Shown piece after piece: positions 12,687 through 26,669 of a stretch of DNA of 64,000 bases. The notes under the pieces were generated by a model. That model saw only the letters and a program-made list of their open reading frames with translations. It made no database searches and was not told where the DNA came from. Position 1 is the stretch's first letter. Each line of letters opens with the position of its first letter. The position numbers and the translations under genes are program-made. The stretch spans positions 108 to 64,107 of the forward strand of contig DAOUOW010000001.1 of assembly GCA_030626475.1 (NCBI GenBank), in the 5' to 3' direction. This DNA comes from Chloroflexota bacterium (GTDB lineage: Bacteria > Chloroflexota > Dehalococcoidia > E44-bin15).

Positions 12687-14420
12687 TTATCGCCCCCTCA
12701 CCAGGGACCAAAGGGTGTGTAGCGGCCTTAGCGTGATCAAGGCTGTAGGCAGCTCCAGCTCCCGTTTCTCACACACCGTGGAGATGCTCACCCGGTCGAT
12801 GGTGGGTTTAAGCTGAGACAGTTGCTCCTCGGGGCTTGGTTGGCCGTCGCAAACTATGTCATCGATGCGATGGAGCATTTCCAGGGCTGTGTTTATGCGC
12901 TCTTCTGTGGCTTCAGCCACCTTCCTGGAGATCAGGTCATGCTTTGCCTTGAGCCGATTGAGGCGTAGCCCTGCCTCATAGGAGGTGTCGACGATGTCCT
13001 GGCGGCTCATCCACTGCGTCTCGTAGTTGAGGGTATACTTCCAGCTGGGCTCAAGCAAAGCCTGGCGATGCTCCTCCAGACTGCGGAAAAGAACTCGGTA
13101 GCCATGGCGCTCGGATTCTTCAAAGGCGAGGCTGCCGGGGTCGAGAAAGGGCGCCAGGGGGGAGATGAAGGGGGAAAATCGCTCGTCCCCGCTGAACTTG
13201 TCAAGCAGATAGCCGCAGTAGTCGATGGTATCCAGCACCGATTTCGGCGTCTGTTGAGGGATGCCGATCATGTAGAAAACATCCAGCCGGCCACAGCCTG
13301 CTGACAGGGCAGCCTCCAGGGTTTCCTCCAGATCCTCGTTGGAGTAATGCTTGCCTGTAGCCTTTCGCACCTCGGGGTCGTGGGTTTCGGGCGAGATTTG
13401 GAGGCAGAATCCAGGGCAGGCCTCGCCAATTTTGCTCAAGAGTTCCCTGGGCACAGGGCGGAATAACTCAAAGATAATCTGGTTTTTCACTCGCTCCTCG
13501 GCCAGTAGCTGGAGAAGATGATGCGCATATTCCTCCCCTGGCTGGCGGATATCGCCCAGGATGAAGATTGGGCCTCTGCTAATGAGGCTTATCCTTTTCA
13601 CATCATAGGCCACTGCCTCCGCACTGCGGAAGGCGGGGTAGTCTCGATTAAACTTTCGACGGAAGGCGGCAGCAGAGCCGCCGCAAAAGACGCAGTTCTG
13701 GGTGCAGCCGCGACAGGTGAGCACTGCGGTGATGGGATAGCGCAGCCAGCGCCTGAAGGGAAGGTAACTGGCAAGGTCGCGGTATCTGATTACTGATTGC
13801 ACCGTATAGTCATAATAACGAACCATGACATCGCTGAGCTCACTAGGCACATGTGAAAGCGGGTTTTGGTGCACCTCACCCTTCTCGTCGCGCCAGGTAA
13901 GATTGGGCACTTGTTGCAGTTCTTTCCCCTTCAGGATGCAATCCATCAATTGGCGGAAGGGCTCCTCGGTGGTATCGCCGCGGAGGACATAATCGACCTC
14001 GGGATAATTCATTAGCTCCTGATGGTAGCAAGAGGCGCTGAGGCCGCCGATAACCAATTTTGATTCCGGGTGATGGCTTTTCACCAGGCGGGCGATCTCG
14101 ATGGCACCGTGGGCGTGGGGGAGCCAGTGGAGATCGATGCCATATACCGGCGCATTTAGATTCTGGATCAGCTTTGGGACGTCAAAATTTTGGTCTCTGA
14201 GCATCCGCACCGCCAGATTGAAGATGCGCACCTGGTAGCCAGCGCGCTCCAGATACTCAGCGATGCTGGTAAATCCTATGGGATACATTTCGAAGATGGG
14301 AGATGGAGGAATGAGGTCGCTTATGGGGCCATAGAGAATCGTCCGCTGGCGGAAGTCATAAACAGTGGGAGGGTGAAGCAGAATTAGGTCCGGTTGGGGC
14401 AATGAAAAGGCTCCTTTCAA
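12687..14420 (-). CDS. B12-binding-domain radical SAM protein
   Basis: N-terminal cobalamin-binding-like Rossmann region. CTQNCVFC (CxxxCxxC) radical SAM cluster motif. 577 aa. Confidence 0.8.
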   Translation of the reverse strand: MKGAFSLPQPDLILLHPPTVYDFRQRTILYGPISDLIPPSPIFEMYPIGFTSIAEYLERAGYQVRIFNLAVRMLRDQNFDVPKLIQNLNAPVYGIDLHWLPHAHGAIEIARLVKSHHPESKLVIGGLSASCYHQELMNYPEVDYVLRGDTTEEPFRQLMDCILKGKELQQVPNLTWRDEKGEVHQNPLSHVPSELSDVMVRYYDYTVQSVIRYRDLASYLPFRRWLRYPITAVLTCRGCTQNCVFCGGSAAAFRRKFNRDYPAFRSAEAVAYDVKRISLISRGPIFILGDIRQPGEEYAHHLLQLLAEERVKNQIIFELFRPVPRELLSKIGEACPGFCLQISPETHDPEVRKATGKHYSNEDLEETLEAALSAGCGRLDVFYMIGIPQQTPKSVLDTIDYCGYLLDKFSGDERFSPFISPLAPFLDPGSLAFEESERHGYRVLFRSLEEHRQALLEPSWKYTLNYETQWMSRQDIVDTSYEAGLRLNRLKAKHDLISRKVAEATEERINTALEMLHRIDDIVCDGQPSPEEQLSQLKPTIDRVSISTVCEKRELELPTALITLRPLHTLWSLVRGR

Positions 14421-14534: not shown

Positions 14535-14906
14535 TTGCTGGAGAACTTCGGTTACATCGGGATTTTTCTCGTTGCCGCCCTTCTTTTCACCTTCACCATG
14601 ATAACGCTTCCCCTTCTCCTCAGGCGTTTCCGTATCGTCCCCAATAAGCCCAACCCGGTAAAGAGCTCCACCTATGAATGTGGCATGGATACCGTGGGCA
14701 AGTCCTGGATTCAATTCAACTTCCGCTACTATTTTTACGCCCTGCTCTTCGTGATCTTTGATATCCAGGTGGTTTTTGTCTATCCCTGGGCGGCAGCCAT
14801 GGGAGAGCTTAAGCTCTTTGGCCTAGTAGTGATGGCGGCTTTCTTTTTGATCGTGATTGTCGGCTTTGTCTATGCCTGGAGAAAGGGGGTTCTGGAATGG
14901 AAATAG
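14535..14906 (+). CDS. nuoA: NADH-quinone oxidoreductase subunit A
   Basis: 123 aa with 3 TM helices and a YECG motif. TTG start after AAAGGAG. Confidence 0.9.
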
Positions 14907-15493
14907 AGATACCCTACTCCAGCAGCAAGCTCGATCACGCCGAGGGTCTTGAGATCGAGGCCCTGATTGAAGTTTCCCAGGAGCCTTACCCCGATCCGGT
15001 CGCCTGGCTGGAGGAGGAGGTGAAGAGGAATGTCCTGGTTACCTCCATTGATCACATCTTAGATTGGGGCCGACGCTACTCAGTCTGGCCGATAAACTTC
15101 GGGCTAGCCTGTTGCGCCTTCGAGATGATCGCCACCGCAGTATCCAGGTTTGACATCGCTCGCTTCGGCATGGAGCTTCTGCGCCCCTCGCCGCGCCAGG
15201 CAGACCTCATGATTGTAGCCGGAACCGTGACCTGGAAGATAGCGCCAGCGCTGAAGCGAATCTATGAGCAGATGCCAGAGCCAAAGTGGGTCATCGCCAT
15301 GGGGGTATGTGCCATCAGTGGCGGGCCTTTTCGCGACTCCTACAGTGTAGTGCCGGGGGTGAACCGCATCGTGCCCGTGGATGTCTATGTCCCCGGATGC
15401 CCACCGCGTCCCGAGGCGCTTCTCCACGGGATTATCATGCTTCATGAGAAGATTAGCAGGGAGACTTTGGCGAAGGGCAGGGAGGATGACTAA
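14897..15493 (+). CDS. nuoB: NADH-quinone oxidoreductase subunit B
   Basis: [16 protein letters not shown] and VPGCPP motifs, which are the N2 cluster ligands. Confidence 0.9.
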
Positions 15494-15941
15494 GCCCCTT
15501 TCCCCCTCAGAGGTCGCCAGGCAAATAGGGGAGCACATCCCTGATGCTGTCACCGATTCCAATGAAAGCGCCGTCTATGTCAAGGGTGAAGCCCTTTTCG
15601 AGGTGGCGCGCCTGCTTAAAGAGAATCTTGACCTCGACTACCTCGCCACCATCACCGCTGTAGACTTTTTGGAACATTTTGAGCTGATTTATCACTTGAC
15701 CTCGATTACAAAAAACCACAGCGTTATCCTAAAGACACGGTGCGAAAAGGGCGAAAAGGGCGAAAAAGTGCCTTCGGTGGTCAGCTTATGGCAGGGTGCC
15801 GATTTACAGGAAAGGGATATCTTTGACCTCATGGGAATCGCCTTCACCGGGCATCCCAATCTCAAGCGCATCTTCCTCTGGGATGGATATAAGGGGCACC
15901 CGCTGAGAAAGGACTGGTCGAAAAATGGCGCTCAAGACTGA
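15486..15941 (+). CDS. nuoC: NADH-quinone oxidoreductase subunit C
   Basis: NuoC 30-kDa family pattern ([10 protein letters not shown]). The ATG at 15486 follows GGAGG and overlaps the nuoB stop; the ORF-track start at 15381 is internal to nuoB. Confidence 0.85.
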
Positions 15942-17028
15942 GCCAGTAATGATCAACTTCGGTCCCCAGCACCCTTCAACCCACGGGGTGTTTCGAATGA
16001 GGATAACCTTTGATGGCGAGGTGATCGTCGATCTGGAGCCGGTATTTGGCTACCTCCATCGCGGCATTGAGAAGCTGGCCGAGTCCAAGACCTATACCCA
16101 GGTCATTCCCTATACCGATAGGCTGGACTACCTTGCTTCCATGTCCAACAACTTCGCCTATGTGATGGCAGTGGAGAAGCTGGCCGACATCGAGGTTCCG
16201 GAGCGGGCCCAATATCTGAGGGTGATCATGGCCGAGCTAATGCGCATCGCCAGTCACCTTATCGCCGTGGGCGCCTTTTTCAACGACCTGGGTGCCTTCT
16301 TCACCCCCTTTATGTACATGTTCCGCGAGCGTGAGAAGATCCTGGACCTGTTTGAGATGGTATGCGGGCAGCGCCTGACCTATAACTATATGCGCATTGG
16401 CGGGGTGAGCCACGACATTCCCGAGGAATTCTTGCCCGCTCTCAGGCGGTTTATCGATGAAATGCCCGGTTTCATTGAGGAATACGATTGGCTCCTCGCT
16501 GAGAACGAAATCGTGCTGGCGCGCACCAAGGGGGTGGGGGTTTTGCCTCCCGAGAAGGCGATCAATGCCTCGGCCAGCGGTCCCATGCTGCGTGCCAGCG
16601 GGGTGAAATGGGATATTCGCAAGGCTGACCCCTATTCGGTATATGATCGCTTCGACTTTGCAATCCCGGTGGGCACGATGGGCGATGCCTATGACCGCTA
16701 CTGGGTGAGGATTCAGGAGATCACGCAGAGCACGCACATCGTGAAGCAGGCTATAGAGCAGCTTCCAGTAGGGGAGATTCGAACTAAGGTTCCCACCATG
16801 CTGCGACCGCCCAAAGGGGAGGCTTATGCCCACATCGAGTCGCCGAGGGGTGAGCTGGGTTTCTACCTGGTGAGCGACAACTCCCCCTACCCCTATCGGT
16901 TCAAGGTCCGCGCCCCATCGCTGATAAACCTCACCGTGCTCCGCGACCTGTGTGTCGGCTGGAAGCTGGCTGATGCCATCGCCATCTTGGGCAGCATTGA
17001 CATCGTTTTGGCCGAGGTGGACCGCTAG
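15925..17028 (+). CDS. nuoD: NADH-quinone oxidoreductase subunit D
   Basis: [14 protein letters not shown]-terminus, 367 aa. Confidence 0.9.
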
Positions 17029-20000
17029 TGAATGTTCTGGAGCAATTTCACGATTGGCTCATGAACTACTGGCCCTCCTGGGCAGCTTACCTGGTGCCGG
17101 CGCTGGTTGCCTTCGTCGTCCTCTCCGCCTTCATCACACTGGTAGTGATGGCCTTTATCTATATCGAGCGTCGGGGAATAGGCAGGTTCCAGATTCGCCG
17201 TGGCCCCAACCGTGCCGGCCCCTTTGGCATCCTGCAACCGGTGGCGGATGCGATAAAGGTGCTGGTAAAGGAAGACATTATCCCCGCCGCCAGCGATCGC
17301 TGGATTCACTGGCTAGCTCCAGTCATCGCCTTCGTCCCCGCTATGGCAATCTTTGCTGTTATACCCTTTGAGGGGAGGGCAATCTTTGCCGACCTTAACA
17401 TCGGCATTCTTTACATAATCGCTATCTCCTCCCTGGGCGTGATCGGGGTTTTTATGGCCGGCTGGGGATCCAATAATAAATTTTCGATGATCAGCGCCAT
17501 GCGCTCCATAGCCCAGATGGTAAGCTATGAAATCCCACTGGTGCTTTCCATTGCCGGGGTGCTCATAATCGCCGGATCCCTCTCCATGACGAGCATCGTA
17601 GAGGCACAGAATGTCCCCTTCTTCCTGCTCCAACCCCTGGGATTCCTGATCTTCTTCATCGCCGCTGCCGCCGAGCTCCAGCGCACCCCTTTCGACCTCC
17701 TGGAAGCGGAGTCCGAGATCGTCGCCGGCTACCATATCGAATACTCGGGGATGAAGTTCGCCCTCTTCTACCTCGGGGAGTACACCCATGCCTTCGCCAT
17801 TTCTGCCATCGTGGCCACCCTTTTCCTCGGTGGCTGGCACGGCGTGCTGCTGCCCGGCGCCCTGTGGTTCATGATAAAGGTATTTTTGGTCTTTGGTGCT
17901 CTTATCTGGGTTCGCAGCACACTGCCCCGACTGAGGGTGGACCAACTGATGGCCTTTGCCTGGAAATGTCTTTTCCCCCTGGCGGTGATCAACCTCTTTG
18001 TCACCGCAATCGAGGTTGTCATTTGGCCTGAGTTTCCATGGCAGCTTATGATCCTCAATATCCTCATTGCCGCCCTGTTGATAGTCCTGTGGTCGGGCTT
18101 CTTCAGGGTAGCAGGGGAGAGGGTGCGCTTCAAAAGATACGGGCGAGGCATTGGCAAGGGCATGACGGTAACCTTCGGGCATCTCTTTCGCCCCCCGATC
18201 ACAGTACAGTATCCAGAGCAGAGGCTCACCGTTTCCAAGCGGGCCCGAGGTAACCGGTTTATTTGGGATGATAGTAAGCGTGCCCCCTGTGTGTTGGCGT
18301 GTCCTGCCAGGGTGGATGCTCAGGGCTATGTCACCCTTATTTCCCAGGGCAAGTTTAAGGAGGCACTTGAACTCGTCAGGCGAAATCTTCCTTTCCCAGC
18401 CGTCTGTGGTAGAGTTTGCACTCATCCGTGCGAAACAGCATGCAATCGGGGGAAGATAGATGAACCCATCGCTATCCGCGACCTCAAGCGCTTCCTGGCT
18501 GACTACGAAATGAGAGCGGAGGAAGAAGAGATAACCCCTGCTCCACGCACCAAAGAGGAAAGGGTGGCTATTATTGGCTCAGGTCCAGGAGGTTTAACTG
18601 CAGCTCGTGATCTGGTAAACATGGGCTATGGGGTGACCGTCTTTGAAGCGCTCCCTATTCCTGGCGGGATGCTGGCTGTGGGTATTCCAGAGTATCGCTT
18701 GCCCAAGGACATACTTCAAAAAGAGATCGAGGCTATTCAAAAACTCGGTGTCGAGATAAGGCTGAACAGCCCTGTAGGCAAAGATGGCCTGACCCTGGAG
18801 GCTCTTTACAAGCAGTATGAAGCAATTCTTGTGGCTGTGGGTGCCCACGACAGCATGAGACTGAATATCCCCGGTGAGGAATTTGAGGGCGTGTATCACG
18901 GTGTTTCCTTCCTCAGAGATGTAAGCCTGGGTAAAGAGGTCAAGGTGGGGGAAAGGGTGGCCATAATTGGCGGGGGTAACGTAGCTATCGATGCTGCCAG
19001 AACAGCCCTCCGACTTGGCTCCAAGGAAGTAATCATTGTCTATCGGAGGTCAAGGCAGGAGATGCCCGCCAGCGAGGAGGAGATAGAAGAGGCTGAGCAT
19101 GAGGGGATCAAGCTCAATTATCTGGCGGCGCCGGTCAAAGTCCTGGGCAAGCAAGGAAAGGTAGTGAGCTTGGAGTGTATTCGGATGGAGTTGGGCGAAC
19201 CTGATGACAGCGGCAGAAGGCGCCCAATACCTGTTGAGGGGTCTGAATTTGTCCTTGACATCGACATGCTCATCCCGGCCATCGGTCAAACCCCTGACCT
19301 CGCCTTCCTACCAGGGGACCATGAATTCCTCATAACAGCTAGAGGAACGTTTGAGGCCGATCCTGCCTCTTTAGCTACTAATATACCTGGCATATTCGCC
19401 TGCGGCGATGCCGTAACCGGACCGGCTACAGCTATTGAGGCGGTAGCAGCTGGAAGCAAAGCCGCCATCGCCATTGATATCTACCTCCGTGGGGAAGAAG
19501 TGGTGCTAGAGGAAAGGCTACCGCTACATGAGGTAGTTATTGAGGATATGGATACCAGTGACATAGTGAGTAAGGATAGGCAGCCTCTGCCTCATCTCTC
19601 CCTCAGGGAAAGAACCCCCGGATTTAAGGAAGTAAATCTCGGCTTTACAGAGGAAATGGCTGCAGAAGAAGCCAATAGGTGCCTCAACTGTGGTGTTTGC
19701 TCTTGGTGTCAACAGTGTGAAAAGGCATGCCCCCAGGGGGTTATCAAGATAGAATGGGACCGCACTCAGGAGGAGGAGCTAGGGGTGAAAAGGTTTGACA
19801 TCGACCTTACAGCCTGCATATTCTGTGGCCTGTGCATCGAGGCATGCCCCGCCCACAGGCTTTATTTCGAGAGAGGCTATGAGACATCCACCTACTGCTT
19901 CGGAGACATAGCGCTGGATAAGGAGGGGCTAAGACCATCCCCCCAGAAGCAGCCGAGCGCCTATGCCCGACCCGAGCTTGAGCCGACCTTGCCCCAACAG

Positions 20001-20039
20001 ACCCTTCTCGTAGACCGCACCAAGGTGAGGAAAGGATAG
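17028..20039 (+). CDS. nuoH/nuoI: NuoH fused to a NuoI carrying an embedded GltD/NfnB-like Fe-S/FAD/NAD(P)H oxidoreductase module
   Basis: Residues 1 to about 330 are a complete NuoH (RRGPNRAGPFG...RVDQLMAFAWK). An extra hydrophobic helix and a basic linker follow. The NuoI N-terminus (MTVTFGHLFRPPITVQYPEQ) then leads into a GltD-like module with an Fe-S region (CVLACP...CGRVCTHPCETAC), two Rossmann motifs (IIGSGPGGLTAA, IIGGGNVAIDAA) and FACGDAVTG. The ORF ends in a canonical NuoI 2x[4Fe-4S] core (CSWCQQCEKACP...CIFCGLCIEACP). There is no stop codon anywhere in this frame; an in-frame ATG at 18162 could also give a separate 625-aa NuoI-GltD product. Confidence 0.8.
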   Translation: MNVLEQFHDWLMNYWPSWAAYLVPALVAFVVLSAFITLVVMAFIYIERRGIGRFQIRRGPNRAGPFGILQPVADAIKVLVKEDIIPAASDRWIHWLAPVIAFVPAMAIFAVIPFEGRAIFADLNIGILYIIAISSLGVIGVFMAGWGSNNKFSMISAMRSIAQMVSYEIPLVLSIAGVLIIAGSLSMTSIVEAQNVPFFLLQPLGFLIFFIAAAAELQRTPFDLLEAESEIVAGYHIEYSGMKFALFYLGEYTHAFAISAIVATLFLGGWHGVLLPGALWFMIKVFLVFGALIWVRSTLPRLRVDQLMAFAWKCLFPLAVINLFVTAIEVVIWPEFPWQLMILNILIAALLIVLWSGFFRVAGERVRFKRYGRGIGKGMTVTFGHLFRPPITVQYPEQRLTVSKRARGNRFIWDDSKRAPCVLACPARVDAQGYVTLISQGKFKEALELVRRNLPFPAVCGRVCTHPCETACNRGKIDEPIAIRDLKRFLADYEMRAEEEEITPAPRTKEERVAIIGSGPGGLTAARDLVNMGYGVTVFEALPIPGGMLAVGIPEYRLPKDILQKEIEAIQKLGVEIRLNSPVGKDGLTLEALYKQYEAILVAVGAHDSMRLNIPGEEFEGVYHGVSFLRDVSLGKEVKVGERVAIIGGGNVAIDAARTALRLGSKEVIIVYRRSRQEMPASEEEIEEAEHEGIKLNYLAAPVKVLGKQGKVVSLECIRMELGEPDDSGRRRPIPVEGSEFVLDIDMLIPAIGQTPDLAFLPGDHEFLITARGTFEADPASLATNIPGIFACGDAVTGPATAIEAVAAGSKAAIAIDIYLRGEEVVLEERLPLHEVVIEDMDTSDIVSKDRQPLPHLSLRERTPGFKEVNLGFTEEMAAEEANRCLNCGVCSWCQQCEKACPQGVIKIEWDRTQEEELGVKRFDIDLTACIFCGLCIEACPAHRLYFERGYETSTYCFGDIALDKEGLRPSPQKQPSAYARPELEPTLPQQTLLVDRTKVRKG

Positions 20040-20041
20040 CG

Positions 20042-20527
20042 TTGGAAGTAGCCTTCTGGATTCTGGCAGTAATTAGTGTAGCCTCAGCCCTGGCGGTGGT
20101 TTTCCTCCGCCATATCTTCCGTGCTGCCCTATTTCTGGTTCTGTGCTTCTTCGCCATAGCTGGAATCTACGCCACCCTTAATGCCGATTTTCTAGCCGCA
20201 GCCCAGGTGCTGATCTATGTCGGCGCAATAGCGGTACTTATCATCTTTGCCATCATGCTCACCAGAGAGACTCAGCAGGGAAGTCCTTCAGGCAGGTTTC
20301 GCCTTATCGCCTTTCTGGTGGGGGCTATGTTCCTGGTCACCATGATCCTGGTGGTGACCGGCACTGACTGGCAAGTGATCACCGAGGCTCCCACTGAGCC
20401 CACAACCTCATCCCTCGCTCAGGCACTTTTTAGCCGCGAGGAGGGCTTTGTCCTCCCCTTTGAAATAGTGGCAGCGCTTTTGCTGGCGGCGGTGATCGGA
20501 GCCATCGCCCTGGTTAGGGAGAAATAG
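20042..20527 (+). CDS. nuoJ: NADH-quinone oxidoreductase subunit J
   Basis: 161 aa with the NuoJ TM pattern. TTG start after AGGAAAGGA. Confidence 0.85.
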   Translation: MEVAFWILAVISVASALAVVFLRHIFRAALFLVLCFFAIAGIYATLNADFLAAAQVLIYVGAIAVLIIFAIMLTRETQQGSPSGRFRLIAFLVGAMFLVTMILVVTGTDWQVITEAPTEPTTSSLAQALFSREEGFVLPFEIVAALLLAAVIGAIALVREK

Positions 20528-20833
20528 ATGACTGTCGGACTTGAGCATTTTCTCATCCTTTCCGCAATCCTTTTCTCCATAGGTTTATATGGCGCTCTGG
20601 CGAAGCGGAATGCGGTGGTCATTCTGATGTCCATCGAAATCATGCTCAATGCAGTGAATATCGCCATGGTTGCCTTCTGGCGGTATGGCCATCTCATCAC
20701 CGGCCAGGTGTTTGCCATCTTCATTATGGTGGTGGCCGCCGCTGAGGCTGCTGTGGGCTTGGCAATAATAATTTCCATTTATCGCAGTCGGGAAACGGTG
20801 GATGTGGAGAAAATTGACCTGATGAAATGGTAG
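20528..20833 (+). CDS. nuoK: NADH-quinone oxidoreductase subunit K
   Basis: 101 aa, 3 TM helices, conserved Glu-containing helices. Confidence 0.9.
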   Translation: MTVGLEHFLILSAILFSIGLYGALAKRNAVVILMSIEIMLNAVNIAMVAFWRYGHLITGQVFAIFIMVVAAAEAAVGLAIIISIYRSRETVDVEKIDLMKW

Positions 20834-20851
20834 CATATTGAGGAAGGACTG

Positions 20852-22786
20852 ATGCCATCTGGTGTACCGTTAGCTATTTTCCTTCTCCCCTTCTTCTCGT
20901 TCATTGTTATCTCTTTTGTCATCAGGCCCTTCCTCAACAGCAAGCCGCAGCTCAGTGGGTACATCACCATTACCTCCATTGGCACCTCTCTAATTCTTTC
21001 CCTTTGGGTCCTGGCTGAGGTAAGCAGTGCTCCGGGGCACATGCTCTCCATGCCCGACTACGAGTGGCTGGTCATCGGCGATACCGTAATTCGGTTCGGG
21101 GTAACCGTAGATGCACTGGCTGCGATTATGCTCATCGTGGTCACCTCAGTCAGCTTGCTGGTTCAGGTCTACTCCCAGGGTTACATGCATGGCGACCCCG
21201 GCTATTCCCGCTACTTCGCCTTCATGTCGCTATTCACCGCCTTCATGCTGGGGCTGGTCTTGGCCGATAACCTCATCATACTCTATGTATTCTGGGAGGG
21301 GGTGGGACTCTGCTCCTATCTCCTTATCGGCTTCTGGTTCCACCGACCGGCGGCAGCAAGGGCGGCGACCAAGGCGTTTATCGTCACCCGCATTGGCGAT
21401 TTCGGCTTCTTGGCCGCCATCCTTTTCCTCTACTTCAAGACGGGCACTTTCGACATCGGGGAGCTCCACCACCTGGCCCTGGCGGGCGCCATTGGGGGCA
21501 CAGTCCTCACCTGGGCTGCAATCGGCGTCTTCTCCGGGGCAATAGGCAAGTCAGCGCAATTCCCGCTCCATACCTGGCTTCCCGATGCCATGGAGGGTCC
21601 GACCCCGGTGAGCGCCTTGATCCATGCAGCCACCATGGTGGCTGCCGGCATATATCTGGTGGCTCGCATGTTCCCTATATTTGCCTCCTCCCTTACAGCA
21701 GTAACCACAGTGGCGGCAATCGGAGGCTTTACCGCTATCTTCGCTGCCACCATGGGCCTGGTGATGAACGATATTAAGCGGGTACTGGCCTACTCCACCA
21801 TCAGCCAATTGGGCTACATGATGCTGGGTTTAGGAGTGGTAGGCATAGGCGTGGCCAACGATGCCATTTCCTTAGAGGTTGGTTTGGGGCTAGGTGTGGC
21901 AGTAGGCATTTTCCATCTGTTCAATCACGCCTTCTTCAAGTCGCTCCTCTTCCTGGGCGCAGGGAGTGTTAATCATGCCACCGGCACCTTTGACATTCGG
22001 GAGATGGGCGGACTGAGAAAGGTGATGCCCTGGACTTATGCCACCTTCCTCATCGCTTCCCTCAGCATCGTCGGTATCTGGCCTCTGGCCGGGTTCTGGA
22101 GCAAAGAGGGCATCCTGGACCATGCCTGGGACCATCAAACCGCATTATTCTTCCTGGCTATGATCACGGTCTTCATGACCGCCTTCTACATGTTCCGCCT
22201 AGTCTTCCTCACCTTTGCTGGAGAGTATCGCGGTGGCAATGCTGGCCACGGTGGGGCAAGCGCCCACGCTCCCTCACTTCGGGAGTCACCCCTGATGATG
22301 GTGGCGCCCATGGGCTTATTGGCCATCCTCGCCGTGATCTCGGGGTGGCTGCCGGTAAGCAGCTTCTTAGGCGGGAAATCGGAGAGCTTCTTCGGTGCCC
22401 TTGCCCACCCTATGGCCTGGGTCTCCATGGTATTGGCTGGTTTGGGCATCCTTCTTGCCTACGCCCTGTATAGCGCAAGATGGCTTTCTGTGGAATCATT
22501 GCGGCGGCGCTTTGCCCCTCTTCATACGCTCTTTTCCCGGAAGTACTGGTTCGATGAGCTCTACGAGAGGGTGATCGTGGTCAGGGTTCTGGTGGACGGG
22601 ATTTTCGCTCTCCTTAACTGGTTTGATACCCGCATTGTCGATGGCGTGGTGAACGGCGTGGCTGGTGGCACCATAGCGGCGGGTAGAGTGATAAGAAGAC
22701 TGGAGACAGGACAATTGCAGGTCTATGGGATTGCCATCTTTATCGGCGTCTTGGCTATTGTCGCCTGTTTCTTAATCTTTGGTTAG
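20852..22786 (+). CDS. nuoL: NADH-quinone oxidoreductase subunit L
   Basis: 644-aa antiporter-like subunit with a C-terminal long-helix region. Confidence 0.9.
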   Translation: MPSGVPLAIFLLPFFSFIVISFVIRPFLNSKPQLSGYITITSIGTSLILSLWVLAEVSSAPGHMLSMPDYEWLVIGDTVIRFGVTVDALAAIMLIVVTSVSLLVQVYSQGYMHGDPGYSRYFAFMSLFTAFMLGLVLADNLIILYVFWEGVGLCSYLLIGFWFHRPAAARAATKAFIVTRIGDFGFLAAILFLYFKTGTFDIGELHHLALAGAIGGTVLTWAAIGVFSGAIGKSAQFPLHTWLPDAMEGPTPVSALIHAATMVAAGIYLVARMFPIFASSLTAVTTVAAIGGFTAIFAATMGLVMNDIKRVLAYSTISQLGYMMLGLGVVGIGVANDAISLEVGLGLGVAVGIFHLFNHAFFKSLLFLGAGSVNHATGTFDIREMGGLRKVMPWTYATFLIASLSIVGIWPLAGFWSKEGILDHAWDHQTALFFLAMITVFMTAFYMFRLVFLTFAGEYRGGNAGHGGASAHAPSLRESPLMMVAPMGLLAILAVISGWLPVSSFLGGKSESFFGALAHPMAWVSMVLAGLGILLAYALYSARWLSVESLRRRFAPLHTLFSRKYWFDELYERVIVVRVLVDGIFALLNWFDTRIVDGVVNGVAGGTIAAGRVIRRLETGQLQVYGIAIFIGVLAIVACFLIFG

Positions 22787-22808
22787 AAAATAATAGGAGA
22801 GAAGGCTT

Positions 22809-24293
22809 TTGGACTTTCCTTATCTCTCAATAATCGTCTTTCTCCCCATAATCGGGGCTATTCTCATTGCCCTTCTGCCTCACGCTGATCCGAGGCGGAT
22901 AAAGCTCACTGCGGCCTTTTTCACCCTGGTCACTTTTGCCCTGTCTTTGTCTTTGTTCTTCATGTTTGACCAGTCACTGGAAGGCGCCCAGTTCGTGGAA
23001 AGGGCATCGTGGATTCCCCCCCTCGACGCTCAATACTTCCTCGGCATCGATGGGCTGAGCCTGCCGATGCTTATTCTGGCCACATTCCTGGGCTTCATCG
23101 CTGTCCTCGTCTCATGGAAGATTGACCTCAGGGTTCGGGAATACTTTGCCTGGCTCCTGGTGCTTGAAACCGGTGTCCTGGGTGTCTTTTGCTCCCTGGA
23201 CCTGCTGCTCTTCTTCCTCTTCTGGGAAGTGGAGATCCTGCCCATGTATCTCTTGATCTCCATCTGGGGCACGGGGAGGAAAGAGTATTCAGCAATGAAA
23301 TTCGTTATTTTTACCCTTGCCGGCAGTGCCATGATGCTGGCTGGAATTCTGCTCCTCTATTTCCATGGCGGCACCTTCGACATGATGGAGCTGGCCGGGA
23401 TGGGGCTTGAGGGAGCCATAAGCACCCTGCTGGCCACAGCGATCTTCTTCCTCCTCTTCATCGGCTATGCGGTTAAGCTGCCTGTTTTCCCCTTTCACAC
23501 CTGGCTGCCGGATGCCCATACCGACGCTCCCACGGCGGTAAGCGTCATCCTCGCCGGGATACTGCTCAAGATGGGTGGCTACGCCATTATTCGCGTCTGC
23601 GTCAGCATATTCCCCGGCGTATCGCAAGACTATGCTGTGCTTCTCGTGGCTTTAGCTTTGGTCAATATTCTTTATGGGGCGGCAGTAACCTTTAGACAGC
23701 GGGACCTGAAACGGCTGATTGCATATAGCAGCATCAGCCATATGGGCTATGTGCTCTTGGGCATCTTTGCCCTGAGCCAGGTGAGCATGACCGGTGCCAC
23801 CCTCCAGATGTTCAGCCATGGCCTGATTACCGGGCTTCTCTTCGCCCTTGTCGGGCTGGTCTACAACAAGACGCATGTCAGGGATATCACCCAGCTTGGC
23901 GGTCTTGCCCGCCGCATGCCAATCATTGCTGTCGTCTTCAGTGTCGCCGGGCTTGCTGCCCTTGGGCTTCCCGGCACCAGCGGCTTCGCTGCTGAGTTTC
24001 TGGTATTCCTCGGCAGCTTCAAGAGCACATTGGTTGATGGCATCCAGACCTATGCCATCCTTGGCATCGTGGGCATCGTGCTCACCGCAGGATATATCCT
24101 TTGGCTATTGCAACGAGTTTTCTATGGCCCAGCCAAGGCCCAGTATGATGGGGTGCCCGATGCCGATAGGCTTGAGCGGTTTACCATCTTCTCCATGGTG
24201 GCGGTGATCATGCTCATCGGCATCTATCCCGCAGTGCTAACCGATATCATCAAGACGGGGGTGTCGCCAATAATGGCCTCTTTGGGCCTGTGA
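22809..24293 (+). CDS. nuoM: NADH-quinone oxidoreductase subunit M
   Basis: 494-aa antiporter-like subunit with a WLPDAH motif. Confidence 0.9.
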   Translation: MDFPYLSIIVFLPIIGAILIALLPHADPRRIKLTAAFFTLVTFALSLSLFFMFDQSLEGAQFVERASWIPPLDAQYFLGIDGLSLPMLILATFLGFIAVLVSWKIDLRVREYFAWLLVLETGVLGVFCSLDLLLFFLFWEVEILPMYLLISIWGTGRKEYSAMKFVIFTLAGSAMMLAGILLLYFHGGTFDMMELAGMGLEGAISTLLATAIFFLLFIGYAVKLPVFPFHTWLPDAHTDAPTAVSVILAGILLKMGGYAIIRVCVSIFPGVSQDYAVLLVALALVNILYGAAVTFRQRDLKRLIAYSSISHMGYVLLGIFALSQVSMTGATLQMFSHGLITGLLFALVGLVYNKTHVRDITQLGGLARRMPIIAVVFSVAGLAALGLPGTSGFAAEFLVFLGSFKSTLVDGIQTYAILGIVGIVLTAGYILWLLQRVFYGPAKAQYDGVPDADRLERFTIFSMVAVIMLIGIYPAVLTDIIKTGVSPIMASLGL

Positions 24294-24348
24294 CAAGGTG
24301 TCTTATGCAGGAAAACGATTTATGGGCTAATTATCGAGAGGTCTTGAA

Positions 24349-25764
24349 TTGAACGTTTATCTGCTATCGCCTGCGATGAGCCTCTGTGGCCTGGCCATAG
24401 TGGTGATCCTGCTCGACCTCGTCCTCAAGCGGAAGTGGATCCTGGGAGCAGTGAGTGTCGCTGGACTCATTGTCCCCGCCGCCTTTACCCTTGCCCTGTG
24501 GGGAAGAGAGGAGACCTCCTTTAATGGAATGCTGGCGGTGGACGAGTTCTCCCTGTTCTTCAACCTCTTTTTCCTGGTGTGCGCGGCATTGGTCATCCTC
24601 TCCTCTATGGATTATGTATCCAAATTCAAGGCGTTTCAGGGAGAGTACTATGCCCTTGTTCTCCTCGCTGCTACGGGGATGATGCTTATGGCATCCACCA
24701 GGGAGTTGATCTCGGTCTATGTTGCCTTGGAGTTAACCGCCATTTCCCTTTATGCCTTGACTGGCTTTTTGAAGGACCCCAAGTCCAGCGAAGCGGGGAT
24801 AAAATATCTCCTCCTCGGGGCGGTGGCCAGCGCCGTTTTGCTCTACGGCATGGCCATGGTTTTCGGACTCAGCGGCAGCACCCATTTTAAGGATATCGCT
24901 GCGGCAATCCCGGGAGGGGTGTTGGATAATCCAGCACTGCTCATGGGAATGGTGTTATTGGTGGCTGGCTTTGGCTTTAAGATTGCTACCGTCCCCTTCC
25001 AGATGTGGGTCCCCGATGTCTACGAAGGAGCGCCGACGCCGATAACCGCCTATCTCTCCGTTGCCAGCAAGGCTGCCGGGTTTGCCGTAATCCTCAGGGT
25101 TTTCTATGAGGCCCTGGGGCCGGTGAGCCTGGACTGGGGGATAATGTTTGGTGTCCTAGCCGCCATTACCATGACCCTGGGCAACGTGGTGGCTATCGCC
25201 CAGACGAACATAAAGCGTATGCTGGGGTATTCCAGCATCGCCCAGGCGGGCTACCTGATGATAGGACTGGCTGCCGTCAGCGCCCTCGGTCGCAGCGGCC
25301 TGGTCTTCTTCCTCATTGCCTATGCTCTTACCAATCTGGGAGCATTTATCGCCATCATCGCCATCTCCAACAAGACCAATAGCGACCTCATCAGCGACTA
25401 CTCAGGAATGGCAAAGCGGGCCCCGCTTCTGGCATTAGCCCTTGGCCTGTGCCTCATCTCCCTTATCGGCATCCCGCCCACGGCTGGGTTCATGGCCAAA
25501 ATATACATCTTCAATGCCGCGGTAGACCACGACCTGATGTGGCTGGTGATCGTGGCTGTAATTAATACCGCCATTTCCGCCTACTACTATCTAAGGGTGG
25601 TCAGGGTAATGTTTCTTGGCGCCCCCACATCAGAGGAGGCGATTCCCTCCTCAGGGGCGCTTCGTACCGCCCTCTCTGTTGCCTGCCTTGGTGTCCTCTT
25701 GCTCGGTGTTTACCCCTGGGCACTGCTGAAAATTGCTGAAACCGCTGTTAACGTGTTTCCTTGA
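24349..25764 (+). CDS. nuoN: NADH-quinone oxidoreductase subunit N
   Basis: 471-aa antiporter-like subunit with MWVPDVYEGAPTP. Confidence 0.9.
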   Translation: MNVYLLSPAMSLCGLAIVVILLDLVLKRKWILGAVSVAGLIVPAAFTLALWGREETSFNGMLAVDEFSLFFNLFFLVCAALVILSSMDYVSKFKAFQGEYYALVLLAATGMMLMASTRELISVYVALELTAISLYALTGFLKDPKSSEAGIKYLLLGAVASAVLLYGMAMVFGLSGSTHFKDIAAAIPGGVLDNPALLMGMVLLVAGFGFKIATVPFQMWVPDVYEGAPTPITAYLSVASKAAGFAVILRVFYEALGPVSLDWGIMFGVLAAITMTLGNVVAIAQTNIKRMLGYSSIAQAGYLMIGLAAVSALGRSGLVFFLIAYALTNLGAFIAIIAISNKTNSDLISDYSGMAKRAPLLALALGLCLISLIGIPPTAGFMAKIYIFNAAVDHDLMWLVIVAVINTAISAYYYLRVVRVMFLGAPTSEEAIPSSGALRTALSVACLGVLLLGVYPWALLKIAETAVNVFP

Positions 25765-25853
25765 CAGCCTTAAATGGTGGTGATAGACTTCGCAATGCAC
25801 GCTATAGCTCTCGCACTTGTTGATTTATTGGCCCAAAACCCGGTGATAACAGC

Positions 25854-26669
25854 TTGAAAAAGGTTGGAATTCTCTACCATCCCAAGATCGCCGCTGCTGG
25901 TGCCCTGGCAGAGGAGTTAGCGAGCTTTCTGCCTTCCCTTAAGACCTCAGTTTGGCTCTGCTCCGCCTGGGAGGAGGAGAAGGTCAAGACACAGGTAGAA
26001 GGTACAGAACTGATCCTCAGCGTTGGCGGCGATGGCACCATCCTCAGGGCTGCCCGCGCCGTTGTCCCCCGGGCTATTCCCATCGTTGGCATAAATCTGG
26101 GTAGGCTCGGATTTATGACTGAGCTCAGCGCCGATGAGGCGCAGGAAAAGATTCCCGCTTTTTTGGCCGGAGAAGGCTGGATCGATGAACGGGCTATGCT
26201 CCAGGCCGAGCTAGAGGGCAAAGCTCCCCTCCATGCCTTGAATGACGTGGTTGTAGGGCGGGGAGCCATATCCCGGGTGGTGTGGGTGGATGTCACTATC
26301 GATGGTGCCCCTCTAACCACTTATAAGGCCGATGGGGTTATCGTGGCCACTGCCACAGGGAGCACGGGCTACTCTCTGGCTGCTGCTGGCCCCATTCTCT
26401 ACCCCTCTTCCAGGGATATATTGCTCAACCCTGTTTCTCCTCACCCTATCTATGCCAACCCGACCTTGGTTCCACCAACGGCCACCGTGGAACTGAAAGT
26501 GCATACTGACTATCAGGCGATGCTCAGCATCGATGGCCAGATAGATATCGAGCTGAAGAGCGGGGACAGCATCCTGGTCAGGCTTAGCCCTCATGTTACC
26601 CGTTTTCTCAGGGCCCAGCCGCCCACTTTTTTCTATAGTAGTTTGATGGAGAGATTGCTACAGAGGTGA
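25854..26669 (+). CDS. nadK: NAD+ kinase
   Basis: GGDGTIL and NDVVVGRG motifs. TTG start. Confidence 0.85.
   Translation: MKKVGILYHPKIAAAGALAEELASFLPSLKTSVWLCSAWEEEKVKTQVEGTELILSVGGDGTILRAARAVVPRAIPIVGINLGRLGFMTELSADEAQEKIPAFLAGEGWIDERAMLQAELEGKAPLHALNDVVVGRGAISRVVWVDVTIDGAPLTTYKADGVIVATATGSTGYSLAAAGPILYPSSRDILLNPVSPHPIYANPTLVPPTATVELKVHTDYQAMLSIDGQIDIELKSGDSILVRLSPHVTRFLRAQPPTFFYSSLMERLLQR

What the first reader, a model, noticed from the sequence alone, without database searches (positions are those of the whole stretch)
18030..18165. Extra hydrophobic helix and Arg/Lys-rich linker joining NuoH to NuoI
After the canonical NuoH C-terminal region (RVDQLMAFAWKCLFPLAVINLFVTAIEVVIW) there is an additional segment (WQLMILNILIAALLIVLWSGFF) followed by RVAGERVRFKRYGRGIGKG, and then the NuoI start. 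This looks like a purpose-built transmembrane linker with a positive-inside signal. That argues the fusion is genuine rather than a lost stop codon.
Basis: seen in the sequence. Interest (0 to 1): 0.6.

Follow-up and report, generated by a model that had tools for sequence, protein, structure and literature searches.

The report
NuoH ninth helix joined to NuoI
The "extra helix plus basic linker" is the ordinary ninth membrane helix and tail of this lineage's NuoH run straight into the ordinary start of NuoI, after one base was apparently lost in the overlap between the two genes; the fusion is real and conserved, but nothing was built to make it.

Summary
ORF 17028-20039 (1003 aa) reads NuoH, then a strongly hydrophobic helix (aa 338-359), then RVAGERVRFKRYGRGIGKG, then NuoI.

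The helix is not extra for this lineage. Ninety-six unfused Dehalococcoidia NuoH proteins end with the same helix and tail (...LPWPVIFLNLAIMAVLVVLWSKFFRLGGGRVEV*). Mycobacterium NuoH aligns through it, and Thermus Nqo8 has a C-terminal extension at the same position.

The "linker" contains no new residues. RVAGERV is the NuoH tail, and RFKRYGRGIGKG is the native NuoI N-terminus (MKFERYGIGIAKG in unfused relatives). NuoI homology begins at about R367, not at M379.

In four unfused loci, nuoI starts at a TTG 11 nt inside nuoH. The fused loci differ by a net single-base loss (AGGGTTG to AGGGTG), which puts nuoI in frame.

The fusion is genuine. Thirty-six independent proteins keep an indel-free junction that is as conserved as its flanks. 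Other junction types show that the fusion arose repeatedly. The ninth helix permits it by placing the NuoH C-terminus on the cytoplasmic side (inferred).

This is of modest interest. The more striking feature lies outside the finding: an NfnB/GltD-like flavoprotein module spliced into NuoI, in an operon with no nuoEFG genes among its ten.

The parts
17028..18026 (+). NuoH core, aa 1-333: eight canonical transmembrane helices, including the EAESE loop motif at aa 226-230
   Evidence: Pfam PF00146 covers aa 29-327, E=2.4e-118. E. coli NuoH 7nyh_H aligns to aa 20-333, E=1e-81. Hydropathy and AF2 helices agree.
18027..18038 (+). Short periplasmic turn P-E-F-P (aa 334-337) between helices 8 and 9, with no Lys or Arg
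   Evidence: Loop count. The conserved turn is WPEFPW in fused proteins and LPEALPW in unfused ones.
18039..18104 (+). Ninth transmembrane helix of NuoH (aa 338-359, WQLMILNILIAALLIVLWSGFF). It is ancestral to the lineage, not added for the fusion.
   Evidence: KD19 peak 2.51. AF2 helix 339-357. The same helix is present in 96 unfused NuoH. It aligns with the C-terminal helix of M. smegmatis NuoH 8e9g_H, residues about 350-371.
18105..18125 (+). Remnant of the native NuoH cytoplasmic tail, RVAGERV (aa 360-366), equivalent to RLGGGRV of unfused NuoH. GTG 18123-18125 (V366) is the codon formed where GTT (NuoH Val) and TTG (nuoI start) merged.
   Evidence: DNA comparison of the window, L001-L003 and L082 with the unfused loci L081, L083, L084 and L085.
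18126..18185 (+). Native NuoI N-terminus, RFKRYGRGIGKGMTVTFGHL (aa 367-386), predicted to be a helix. It corresponds to (M)KFERYGIGIAKGMALTLEHL of unfused NuoI.
   Evidence: Unfused NuoI proteins P0251, P0256, P0262 and P0264 align from residue 2 to about aa 367. L081 nuoI translation. AF2 helix 368-386, low pLDDT.
18186..18275 (+). Conserved NuoI N-terminal segment, aa 387-416, including ITVQYPE (aa 391-397)
   Evidence: Matches NdhI/NuoI chains 6hum_I and 7q5y_D. Motif position.
18276..19676 (+). NfnB/GltD-like module inserted in NuoI (aa 417-883): Fer4_20 Fe-S domain (CVLACP 421-426, CGRVCTHPCETAC 460-472) and FAD/NAD(P)H domains (GSGPGG 517-522). This is context, outside the finding.
   Evidence: Pfam PF14691 and PF07992. 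PDB sequence hits 9bov_A 7e-144 and 4ylf_B 5e-114. Foldseek 4ylf_B TM 0.81.
19677..19850 (+). RCLNC (aa 884-888) followed by the NuoI ferredoxin core with two CxxCxxCxxxCP motifs (aa 891-902 and 930-941)
   Evidence: Motif scan. NuoI/TYKY chains align to this region.
19851..20039 (+). NuoI C-terminal region and stop codon. nuoJ starts at 20042.

Best explanation
The segment 18030-18165 contains three pre-existing pieces joined end to end:
- the ninth transmembrane helix that NuoH already has in Dehalococcoidia, and also in Thermus and Mycobacterium;
- seven residues of NuoH's own cytoplasmic tail;
- the first twelve or so residues of NuoI's own N-terminus.

In unfused relatives, nuoI starts at a TTG 11 nt before the nuoH stop codon, one base out of frame. 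The Shine-Dalgarno sequence GGAGG lies inside the NuoH 'GGG' codons. A net loss of one base (AGG GTT GAA GTT TGA becoming AGG GTG ...) put nuoI into the nuoH frame. NuoH lost its last two residues and its stop codon, NuoI lost its initiator Met, and no residue was added (shown by DNA and protein comparison).

The fusion is tolerated because helix 9 already delivers the NuoH C-terminus to the cytoplasmic face, where NuoI's N-terminal helix sits on the membrane arm. This step is inferred from the charge distribution, from the 8-9 helix range known for this subunit, and from the mycobacterial structure, in which the NuoH C-terminus reaches the peripheral arm.

The result is a single polypeptide that covalently ties the quinone-module subunit NuoI to the first membrane subunit. 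It has been kept under purifying selection across a clade and has arisen more than once.
For: 1. Ninety-six unfused NuoH proteins have the same helix and tail. Eighty-eight share an identical 70-residue length after the PRLR motif, with consensus ...LPWPVIFLNLAIMAVLVVLWSKFFRLGGGRVEV.
2. Unfused NuoI N-termini read MKFERYGRGIAKG or MRFERYGIGIAKG. They match aa 367-379 and align from their residue 2.
3. Four unfused loci (L081, L083, L084, L085) have an 11-nt nuoH/nuoI overlap with a TTG start. Five fused loci (window, L001, L002, L003, L082) read ...AGG GTG MGC TTY..., one base shorter and in frame.
4. Thirty-six fused proteins have a junction of fixed length. Column conservation is 0.78-0.81 in the junction, against 0.83-0.89 in the flanking NuoH and NuoI cores.
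5. In a neighbour-joining tree of the NuoH core, the fused clade is nested among unfused NuoH that carry helix 9. Other junction types (P0040/P0241, P0031, P0253) branch separately.
6. Topology: Lys+Arg counts are 1 periplasmic against 15 cytoplasmic. E. coli NuoH ends before the helix, whereas M. smegmatis NuoH aligns through it. The M. smegmatis NuoH C-terminus extends from the membrane to the peripheral arm (PMC10068793). A review table lists NuoH with 8-9 TMH (PMC10212512).
7. AF2 models helix 339-357, coil 358-367, then helix 368-386.
Against: - The single-base-loss scenario is a comparison with modern unfused relatives, not a reconstructed ancestor. Other paths, such as compensating indels, would give the same net result.
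- The tree is neighbour-joining on BLOSUM distances without support values. Two fused sequences with the same junction type (P0136, P0176) fall outside the main fused clade, so 'one origin' for the window-type junction is likely but not proven.
- AF2 confidence is below 50 for aa 360-409. No coordinates were available, so the proximity of the helix-9 exit to the NuoI N-terminal helix was not measured.
- No expression or proteomic data show the 110-kDa product.
Confidence: 0.85

Rival explanations
1. One reading: the helix and the basic stretch are a purpose-built transmembrane linker that evolved with, or for, the fusion to carry the chain across the membrane to NuoI.
For: The helix is absent from E. 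coli and mitochondrial NuoH/ND1. A ninth helix is topologically required for a fusion to a cytoplasmic subunit. The junction is slightly more basic in the window (7 K/R, 1 D/E) than the two separate termini (5 K/R and 2 D/E in RLGGGRVEV plus MKFERYGIGIAKG; my count from the sequences).
Against: The same helix and tail occur in 96 unfused NuoH of the same lineage and in M. smegmatis. No residue in aa 338-379 lacks a counterpart in the unfused NuoH or NuoI. Unfused NuoH with helix 9 sits next to both a plain NuoI (L084, L085) and a NuoI with the flavoprotein insert (L081).
Confidence: 0.04
2. The fusion is an artefact of this assembly: a sequencing or assembly indel in the nuoH/nuoI overlap, with the organism actually making two proteins.
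For: The fusion differs from the unfused state by a net single base, the commonest kind of sequencing error. The database does hold apparent NuoH-NuoI 'fusions' without helix 9 that degenerate into frame-shifted junk (for example P0286, P0298, P0342).
Against: The same in-frame junction is present in independent MAGs and metagenomes at 66-92% identity, with many synonymous and non-synonymous differences around it (L001-L003, L082, P0001-P0020, P0121-P0138). The NuoH tail has diverged from the GGGRVEV consensus, which is near-invariant in unfused relatives. That fits release from the dual-coding constraint over evolutionary time.
Confidence: 0.02
3. This explanation is not exclusive of the best one. 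The fused ORF may also yield a free NuoI by internal initiation at GTG 18123-18125 (V366), the relic of the old nuoI start, behind the purine-rich relic of its Shine-Dalgarno sequence (GGGGAGAGG). The cell would then make both tethered and free NuoI.
For: GTG and the upstream GGGGARAGG are retained in all five fused loci for which DNA was read.
Against: The spacing from GGAG to GTG is only 3 nt. In other fused family members position 366 is F, L, A or M (GERFSL, GEGLSF, GEGASF), so a start-capable codon is not conserved. The Val is also simply the conserved NuoH tail residue.
Confidence: 0.08

Closest known systems
Nine-helix NuoH/Nqo8 of Thermus thermophilus (4HEA/4HE8 chain H, 365 aa) and Mycobacterium smegmatis (8E9G chain H, 408 aa)
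   Same: A C-terminal extension follows the eight helices shared with E. coli NuoH and mitochondrial ND1. M. smegmatis NuoH aligns residue by residue through the window's helix 9. Its C-terminus runs from the membrane to the peripheral arm (PMC10068793). NuoH is listed with 8-9 TMH (PMC10212512).
   Different: In those organisms NuoH ends as a free C-terminus. Here the chain continues into NuoI. For Thermus the alignment covers only the start of the extension.
Unfused Dehalococcoidia NuoH (353-374 aa, e.g. P0144, P0148, P0160) with overlapping nuoI (L081, L084, L085)
   Same: About 65-70% identity over NuoH. The same helix 9 and tail are present. The nuoA-B-C-D-H-I-J-K-L-M-N order without nuoEFG holds in L081, L083 and L085; the L084 contig is too short to show it.
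   Different: A stop codon follows ...GGGRVEV, and nuoI is translated separately from a TTG 11 nt upstream of that stop.
Known complex I subunit fusions (NuoC-NuoD in E. coli and relatives; NuoB-C-D in some deltaproteobacteria)
   Same: Adjacent genes of the nuo operon are joined in frame into one polypeptide without change of function (PMC4758237; PMC3144371).
   Different: Those fusions join two peripheral-arm subunits. This one joins a membrane-arm subunit to a peripheral-arm subunit and depends on an odd number of helices. I found no paper describing a NuoH-NuoI fusion.
NfnB / NfnABC NfnA / StnC / GltD flavoproteins (4YLF_B, 5JCA_L, 9BOV_A, 8OH5_C, 2VDC_G). These relate to the insert in NuoI, not to the linker.
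   Same: 46% identity to NfnB 4ylf_B (420 columns) and 40% to 9bov_A (611 columns). Foldseek TM 0.81 to 4ylf_B. Fer4_20 cysteines and a GxGxxG motif (GSGPGG, aa 517-522) are present.
   Different: The module is embedded inside NuoI of a complex I operon rather than in a soluble transhydrogenase or glutamate synthase.

Membership tests
NuoH/ND1/Nqo8 (Pfam PF00146) | Full-length match to the family profile and to solved NuoH chains | tested here: met
   PF00146 E=2.4e-118 over aa 29-327. 7nyh_H E=1e-81 and 4he8_H E=5e-76.
NuoH/ND1/Nqo8 (Pfam PF00146) | Position in a nuo operon between nuoD and nuoJ | tested here: met
   nuoA 14535, nuoB 14897, nuoC about 15381, nuoD 15925, this ORF 17028, nuoJ 20042, nuoK 20528, nuoL 20852, nuoM 22809, nuoN 24349.
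Nine-helix subclass of NuoH (Thermus/Mycobacterium type) | A hydrophobic helix after helix 8 that is homologous to that of solved 9-helix NuoH | tested here: met
   KD peak 2.51. AF2 helix 339-357. Alignment with 8e9g_H through residue 371.
Nine-helix subclass of NuoH (Thermus/Mycobacterium type) | C-terminus on the cytoplasmic side, next to the peripheral arm | not testable with these tools
   Inferred from K/R counts of 1 periplasmic against 15 cytoplasmic and from the M. smegmatis structure description. No coordinates or topology assay were available.
NuoI/TYKY/Nqo9 | N-terminal helix plus the (I/V)T(V/T)QYPE segment, and two CxxCxxCxxxCP motifs | tested here: met
   ITVQYPE at aa 391-397, CSWCQQCEKACP at 891-902 and CIFCGLCIEACP at 930-941. 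Matches to NdhI and NuoI chains.
Evolved or 'purpose-built' inter-domain linker | Residues at the junction that have no counterpart in the unfused parent proteins | tested here: not met
   aa 338-366 match the unfused NuoH helix 9 and tail. aa 367-379 match the unfused NuoI N-terminus. The junction is one base shorter than the overlapped unfused genes.
Genuine, fixed gene fusion (as opposed to an assembly frameshift) | The same in-frame junction in independent, diverged genomes, with conservation comparable to the flanks | tested here: met
   36 proteins share an identical junction length, with conservation 0.78-0.84. Five loci were checked at the DNA level.

The most novel reading that the evidence does not exclude
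The helix-9 tether may be one part of a self-contained enzyme. This would be a NuoEFG-less complex I whose NuoI has acquired its own NAD(P)H-oxidising input module: an NfnB/GltD-like unit with FAD and Fe-S clusters, aa 417-883. The whole NuoI-flavoprotein unit would be covalently anchored to the membrane arm through NuoH.

If so, this lineage would show directly what feeds electrons into an '11-subunit' complex I. That question is described as still open in the literature (PMC11238625). The H-I fusion would act as an assembly or retention anchor for an enlarged, otherwise loosely held peripheral subunit.

The evidence does not exclude this, but it does not require coupling either. Fused forms without the flavoprotein exist (L082), and so do unfused forms with it (L081).
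Probability: 0.4. Interest if true: 0.75.

Novelty: new variant of a known kind. Interest (0 to 1): 0.3.

Why it matters
For the finding as stated, the value is mainly corrective. The helix is a known lineage feature of NuoH, and the 'linker' is two native termini.

It is also a clean, nearly base-resolved example of how overlapping, translationally coupled genes fuse. One base lost in an 11-nt overlap is enough. A pre-existing odd-numbered helix makes a membrane-subunit-to-soluble-subunit fusion neutral, which explains why it recurs.

I found no description in the literature searched of a covalent link between the membrane arm (NuoH) and the quinone module (NuoI). Such a link would give structural biologists a natural tether at the interface where coupling is thought to occur.

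The greater significance lies in the neighbouring NfnB-like insert in NuoI. It may identify the electron input of a NuoEFG-less complex I.

Tried and rejected
- Literature searches for NuoH-NuoI fusions, and for GltD/NfnB-like inserts in NuoI of Dehalococcoidia. None described either. The nearest item is a GltD-related flavoprotein said to replace NuoI in Mbx-like operons (PMC4758237).
- The Thermus whole-complex paper (PMC3672946) is not held. A search for 'TM9' in PMC5938582 returned only antiporter-subunit helices.
- The Foldseek search of the AF2 model against the PDB was dominated by the flavoprotein domain. It gave no information on helix 9.
- AF2 gave pLDDT below 50 for aa 360-409, so the junction geometry could not be judged.
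- I considered that the window might hold a second, paralogous nuo operon that would explain the forms with and without the flavoprotein insert. This was rejected. The window and L082 are syntenic, down to the NAD kinase gene, with 80-94% identity in the other genes, so they are alleles of one locus.
This was rejected because unfused NuoI proteins begin 12 residues earlier.
- Apparent database fusions lacking helix 9 (P0259, P0286, P0298, P0342) were examined. They run into frame-shifted, low-complexity sequence, so I treated them as gene-calling or sequencing artefacts.
Full report
**What is there**

The window carries a nuo operon: nuoA 14535, nuoB 14897, nuoC about 15381, nuoD 15925, one long ORF at 17028-20039, nuoJ 20042, nuoK 20528, nuoL 20852, nuoM 22809 and nuoN 24349. 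There are no nuoEFG genes among them.

The long ORF encodes 1003 aa. Pfam finds the following:
- NuoH (PF00146) at aa 29-327, E=2e-118;
- a GltD/DPD-type Fe-S domain (PF14691) at aa 417-497;
- a pyridine-nucleotide-disulfide oxidoreductase domain (PF07992) at aa 512-809;
- a 2x[4Fe-4S] ferredoxin domain at aa 891-942.

WQLMILNILIAALLIVLWSGFF is aa 338-359 (nt 18039-18104). RVAGERVRFKRYGRGIGKG is aa 360-378.

The closest genomes are Dehalococcoidia (Chloroflexota) MAGs. L001 is 92% identical over the whole protein, and L002 and L003 are 76-81% identical.

**Is the helix a transmembrane helix?**

Yes, on four counts:
- Its 19-residue Kyte-Doolittle mean peaks at 2.51, within the 1.8-2.9 range of the eight canonical NuoH helices.
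- AlphaFold2, run with a 70-sequence alignment (A1), models helix 339-357, a coil at 358-367 and a second helix at 368-386. Confidence falls below 50 from aa 360 to 409.
- With the known N-out orientation of NuoH, the periplasmic loops hold 1 Lys/Arg in total. The cytoplasmic loops hold 15, seven of them after helix 9. The turn between helices 8 and 9 (PEFP) has none.
- The topology is therefore N-out, nine helices, C-in.

**Is the helix 'extra'?**

It is extra only against 8-helix NuoH. E. coli NuoH (325 aa) aligns up to W333 of the window protein and stops there.

The nearest unfused NuoH proteins have the same helix. They are 353-374 aa long, about 65-70% identical, and several are labelled Dehalococcoidia or Dehalococcoidales by their sources. 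They end ...LPWTIIFLNLAIMAVLIVLWSKFFRLGGGRVEV-stop. I found 96 such proteins. Eighty-eight have an identical 70-residue distance from the PRLR motif to the stop, and the last eight residues are almost invariant.

M. smegmatis NuoH (8E9G chain H, 408 aa) aligns through the helix...EGTWAAWLLTAAVVVVVALIWG against PEFPWQLMILNILIAALLIVLWS. T. thermophilus Nqo8 (365 aa) also extends past helix 8. A review table lists 8-9 helices for this subunit (PMC10212512). In the mycobacterial structure the NuoH C-terminus runs from the membrane to the peripheral arm (PMC10068793).

That condition is met.

**What is the 'linker'?**

It consists of two native termini. A search of 1.84 billion representative proteins with aa 296-420 gave two classes of hit. 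NuoH fragments align up to about aa 367. NuoI proteins align from their own residue 2 starting at about aa 367.

Unfused NuoI N-termini read MKFERYGRGIAKGL..., MRFERYGIGIAKGM... and MKLERYGIGIAKGL.... The window has RFKRYGRGIGKGM at the equivalent position.

So RVAGERV (aa 360-366) is the NuoH tail, equivalent to RLGGGRV. RFKRYGRGIGKG (aa 367-378) is already NuoI. M379 is an internal, conserved Met/Leu of NuoI, not its start.

**How the fusion arose (DNA level)**

In four unfused loci (L081, L083, L084, L085), nuoH ends ...GGA GGA GGA AGG GTT GAA GTT TGA. nuoI starts at the TTG inside it (G TTG AAG TTT GAR ...). This gives an 11-nt overlap, one base out of frame, with GGAGG as the ribosome-binding site.

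In five fused loci (window, L001, L002, L003, L082) the same place reads ...GAG AGG GTG MGC TTY MAA AGA TAC GGG. AGGGTTG has become AGGGTG, a net loss of one base. That change merges the NuoH Val codon with the nuoI start codon and carries the reading frame into nuoI.

NuoH loses two residues (Glu-Val) and its stop codon. NuoI loses its Met. Nothing is inserted. This rests on a comparison of living relatives, not on a reconstructed ancestor, so the exact mutational path is inferred.

**Is the fusion real?**

Yes. Thirty-six proteins from independent sources share the window-type junction with no length variation. ITVQYP lies exactly 92 residues after the PRLR motif in all 36. Mean column conservation is as follows:

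| Region | Mean column conservation |
|---|---|
| Helix 9 | 0.81 |
| NuoH tail | 0.78 |
| NuoI N-terminus | 0.81 |
| Flanking NuoH and NuoI cores | 0.83-0.89 |

In a neighbour-joining tree of the NuoH core, these proteins form a clade nested among unfused NuoH that carry helix 9. That tree has no support values.

Other fused proteins have different breakpoints and branch elsewhere, which indicates repeated, independent fusions:
- P0040 and P0241: ...LWSLLFKRGYGLGLLKGL...;
- P0031: ...AIMAVLIL|KGLSVTLRN..., with a shortened helix;
- P0253.

By contrast, database 'fusions' that lack helix 9 (for example P0286, P0298, P0342) run into frame-shifted junk and look like errors. This fits the expectation that only a 9-helix NuoH can be fused productively.

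**Mechanistic reading**

Helix 9 was already there. It places the NuoH C-terminus on the cytoplasmic face, where NuoI's N-terminal helix binds. The two genes overlapped, so a one-base change was enough to fuse them, and the product was topologically neutral.

The steps that are shown:
- homology of every junction residue to the unfused termini;
- the overlap and the one-base difference;
- conservation of the junction and recurrence of the fusion.

The steps that are inferred:
- the cytoplasmic location of the junction;
- the proximity of the two termini in the assembled complex;
- any selective benefit, such as stoichiometric co-assembly or tethering of NuoI.

A minor rival is that the relic GTG (18123-18125), behind the relic purine-rich stretch, still initiates a free NuoI. 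The codon is kept in the five DNA loci read. However, position 366 is F, L, A or M in other family members, so this is unlikely to be a conserved feature.

**Comparison with what is known**

The helix belongs to the known 9-helix class of NuoH/Nqo8. The event belongs to the known kind 'fusion of adjacent nuo genes', such as NuoCD and NuoBCD. An H-I fusion links membrane arm and peripheral arm, and I found no description of it in four full-text searches. I rate it a new variant of a known kind, of modest interest.

**Outside the finding**

NuoI in this ORF is interrupted by a module of about 470 residues. The module is 46% identical to NfnB 4YLF_B (420 aligned columns) and 40% to 9BOV_A (611 columns). 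The sequence match to 9BOV_A has E=7e-144, and the fold match to 4YLF_B has TM 0.81.

An unfused relative (L081) has a 629-aa NuoI with a comparable module inserted after the first ferredoxin motif. In the window it lies before that motif.

The window and L082 are syntenic alleles. Their other nuo genes and the downstream NAD kinase are 80-94% identical, and the NuoH part is 89% identical. L082 has a plain NuoI whose ferredoxin part is only 38% identical to the window's, which suggests a cassette exchange.

The electron donor of NuoEFG-less complex I is described as unresolved (PMC11238625). This insert therefore deserves its own follow-up.

Noticed in passing
window 18276-19690 (aa 417-888 of ORF 17028-20039): NuoI is interrupted by an NfnB/GltD-like flavoprotein module with a Fer4_20 Fe-S domain and a Pyr_redox_2 (FAD/NAD(P)H-type) domain with a GSGPGG motif. 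It is 40-46% identical to NfnB and to NfnABC NfnA. The operon has no nuoEFG, so this could be a built-in NAD(P)H input module for an '11-subunit' complex I. No paper describing it was found.
   Followed up: partly
L081 6574-8463 compared with window 18126-20036: There are two architectures of the flavoprotein insert. In unfused L081 (and in P0256, P0031, P0264) the module follows the first CxxCxxCxxxCP motif of NuoI. In the window it precedes both motifs. The two are only about 53% identical, which suggests separate insertion events or a rearrangement.
   Followed up: partly
window 14535-26669 compared with L082 734-11501: The window and L082 are syntenic, with 80-94% aa identity in nuoA, B, D, J, K, M, N and the downstream NAD kinase, and 89% in the NuoH part. 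L082 has a plain 526-aa NuoH-NuoI whose ferredoxin part is only 38% identical to the window's. In the NuoH tree, forms with and without the flavoprotein insert are interleaved. This looks like repeated cassette exchange of the NuoI 3' portion.
   Followed up: partly
L081 6540-6590; L083, L084 and L085 nuoH 3' ends: The last eight residues of unfused Dehalococcoidia NuoH (LGGGRVEV) are almost invariant across 88 proteins. Their codons double as the Shine-Dalgarno sequence (GGAGG), the TTG start and the first codons of the overlapping nuoI. The conservation is probably a dual-coding constraint, and it relaxes in the fused clade (RVAGERV).
   Followed up: partly
protein P0022 (778 aa): In this variant the NuoH tail runs directly into the flavoprotein domain (...FFRVVGERDMKCAPCVWACPAGVD...), skipping the whole NuoI N-terminal segment (ITVQYPE and the rest). 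It could be a real deletion or an assembly artefact on a 2.9-kb contig.
   Followed up: no
window 25854-26669 (+): An NAD kinase gene (PF01513/PF20143) lies immediately downstream of nuoN, here and in L082. The link is suggestive if the complex uses NADPH, but it is also present at the locus without the flavoprotein insert.
   Followed up: no
proteins P0259, P0270, P0286, P0298, P0332, P0342: These are apparent NuoH-NuoI 'fusions' from other, high-GC lineages. They lack a ninth helix and run into frame-shifted, Arg/Pro/Ala-rich sequence. They are probably indel or gene-calling artefacts at overlapping nuoH/nuoI genes.
   Followed up: partly
L082 5620-8724: tblastn finds nuoL (90% identity, residues 1-607) and nuoM (94% identity, residues 100-494) only about 100 nt apart, with no nuoL gene called. 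There may be a deletion or frameshift across the nuoL/nuoM boundary in that contig. A NUDIX gene also sits between nuoM and nuoN there, but not in the window.
   Followed up: no
window 17313-18425 (-) and 17768-18238 (-): Long antisense ORFs (370 and 156 aa) overlap the NuoH/NuoI junction region. Their translations are low-complexity and Gly/Asp/Glu/His-rich. They are most likely shadow ORFs of the coding strand, not genes.
   Followed up: no
window 12687-14420 (-): A B12-binding radical SAM protein (PF02310 and PF04055) is encoded divergently just upstream of nuoA. No relation to the operon is known.
   Followed up: no
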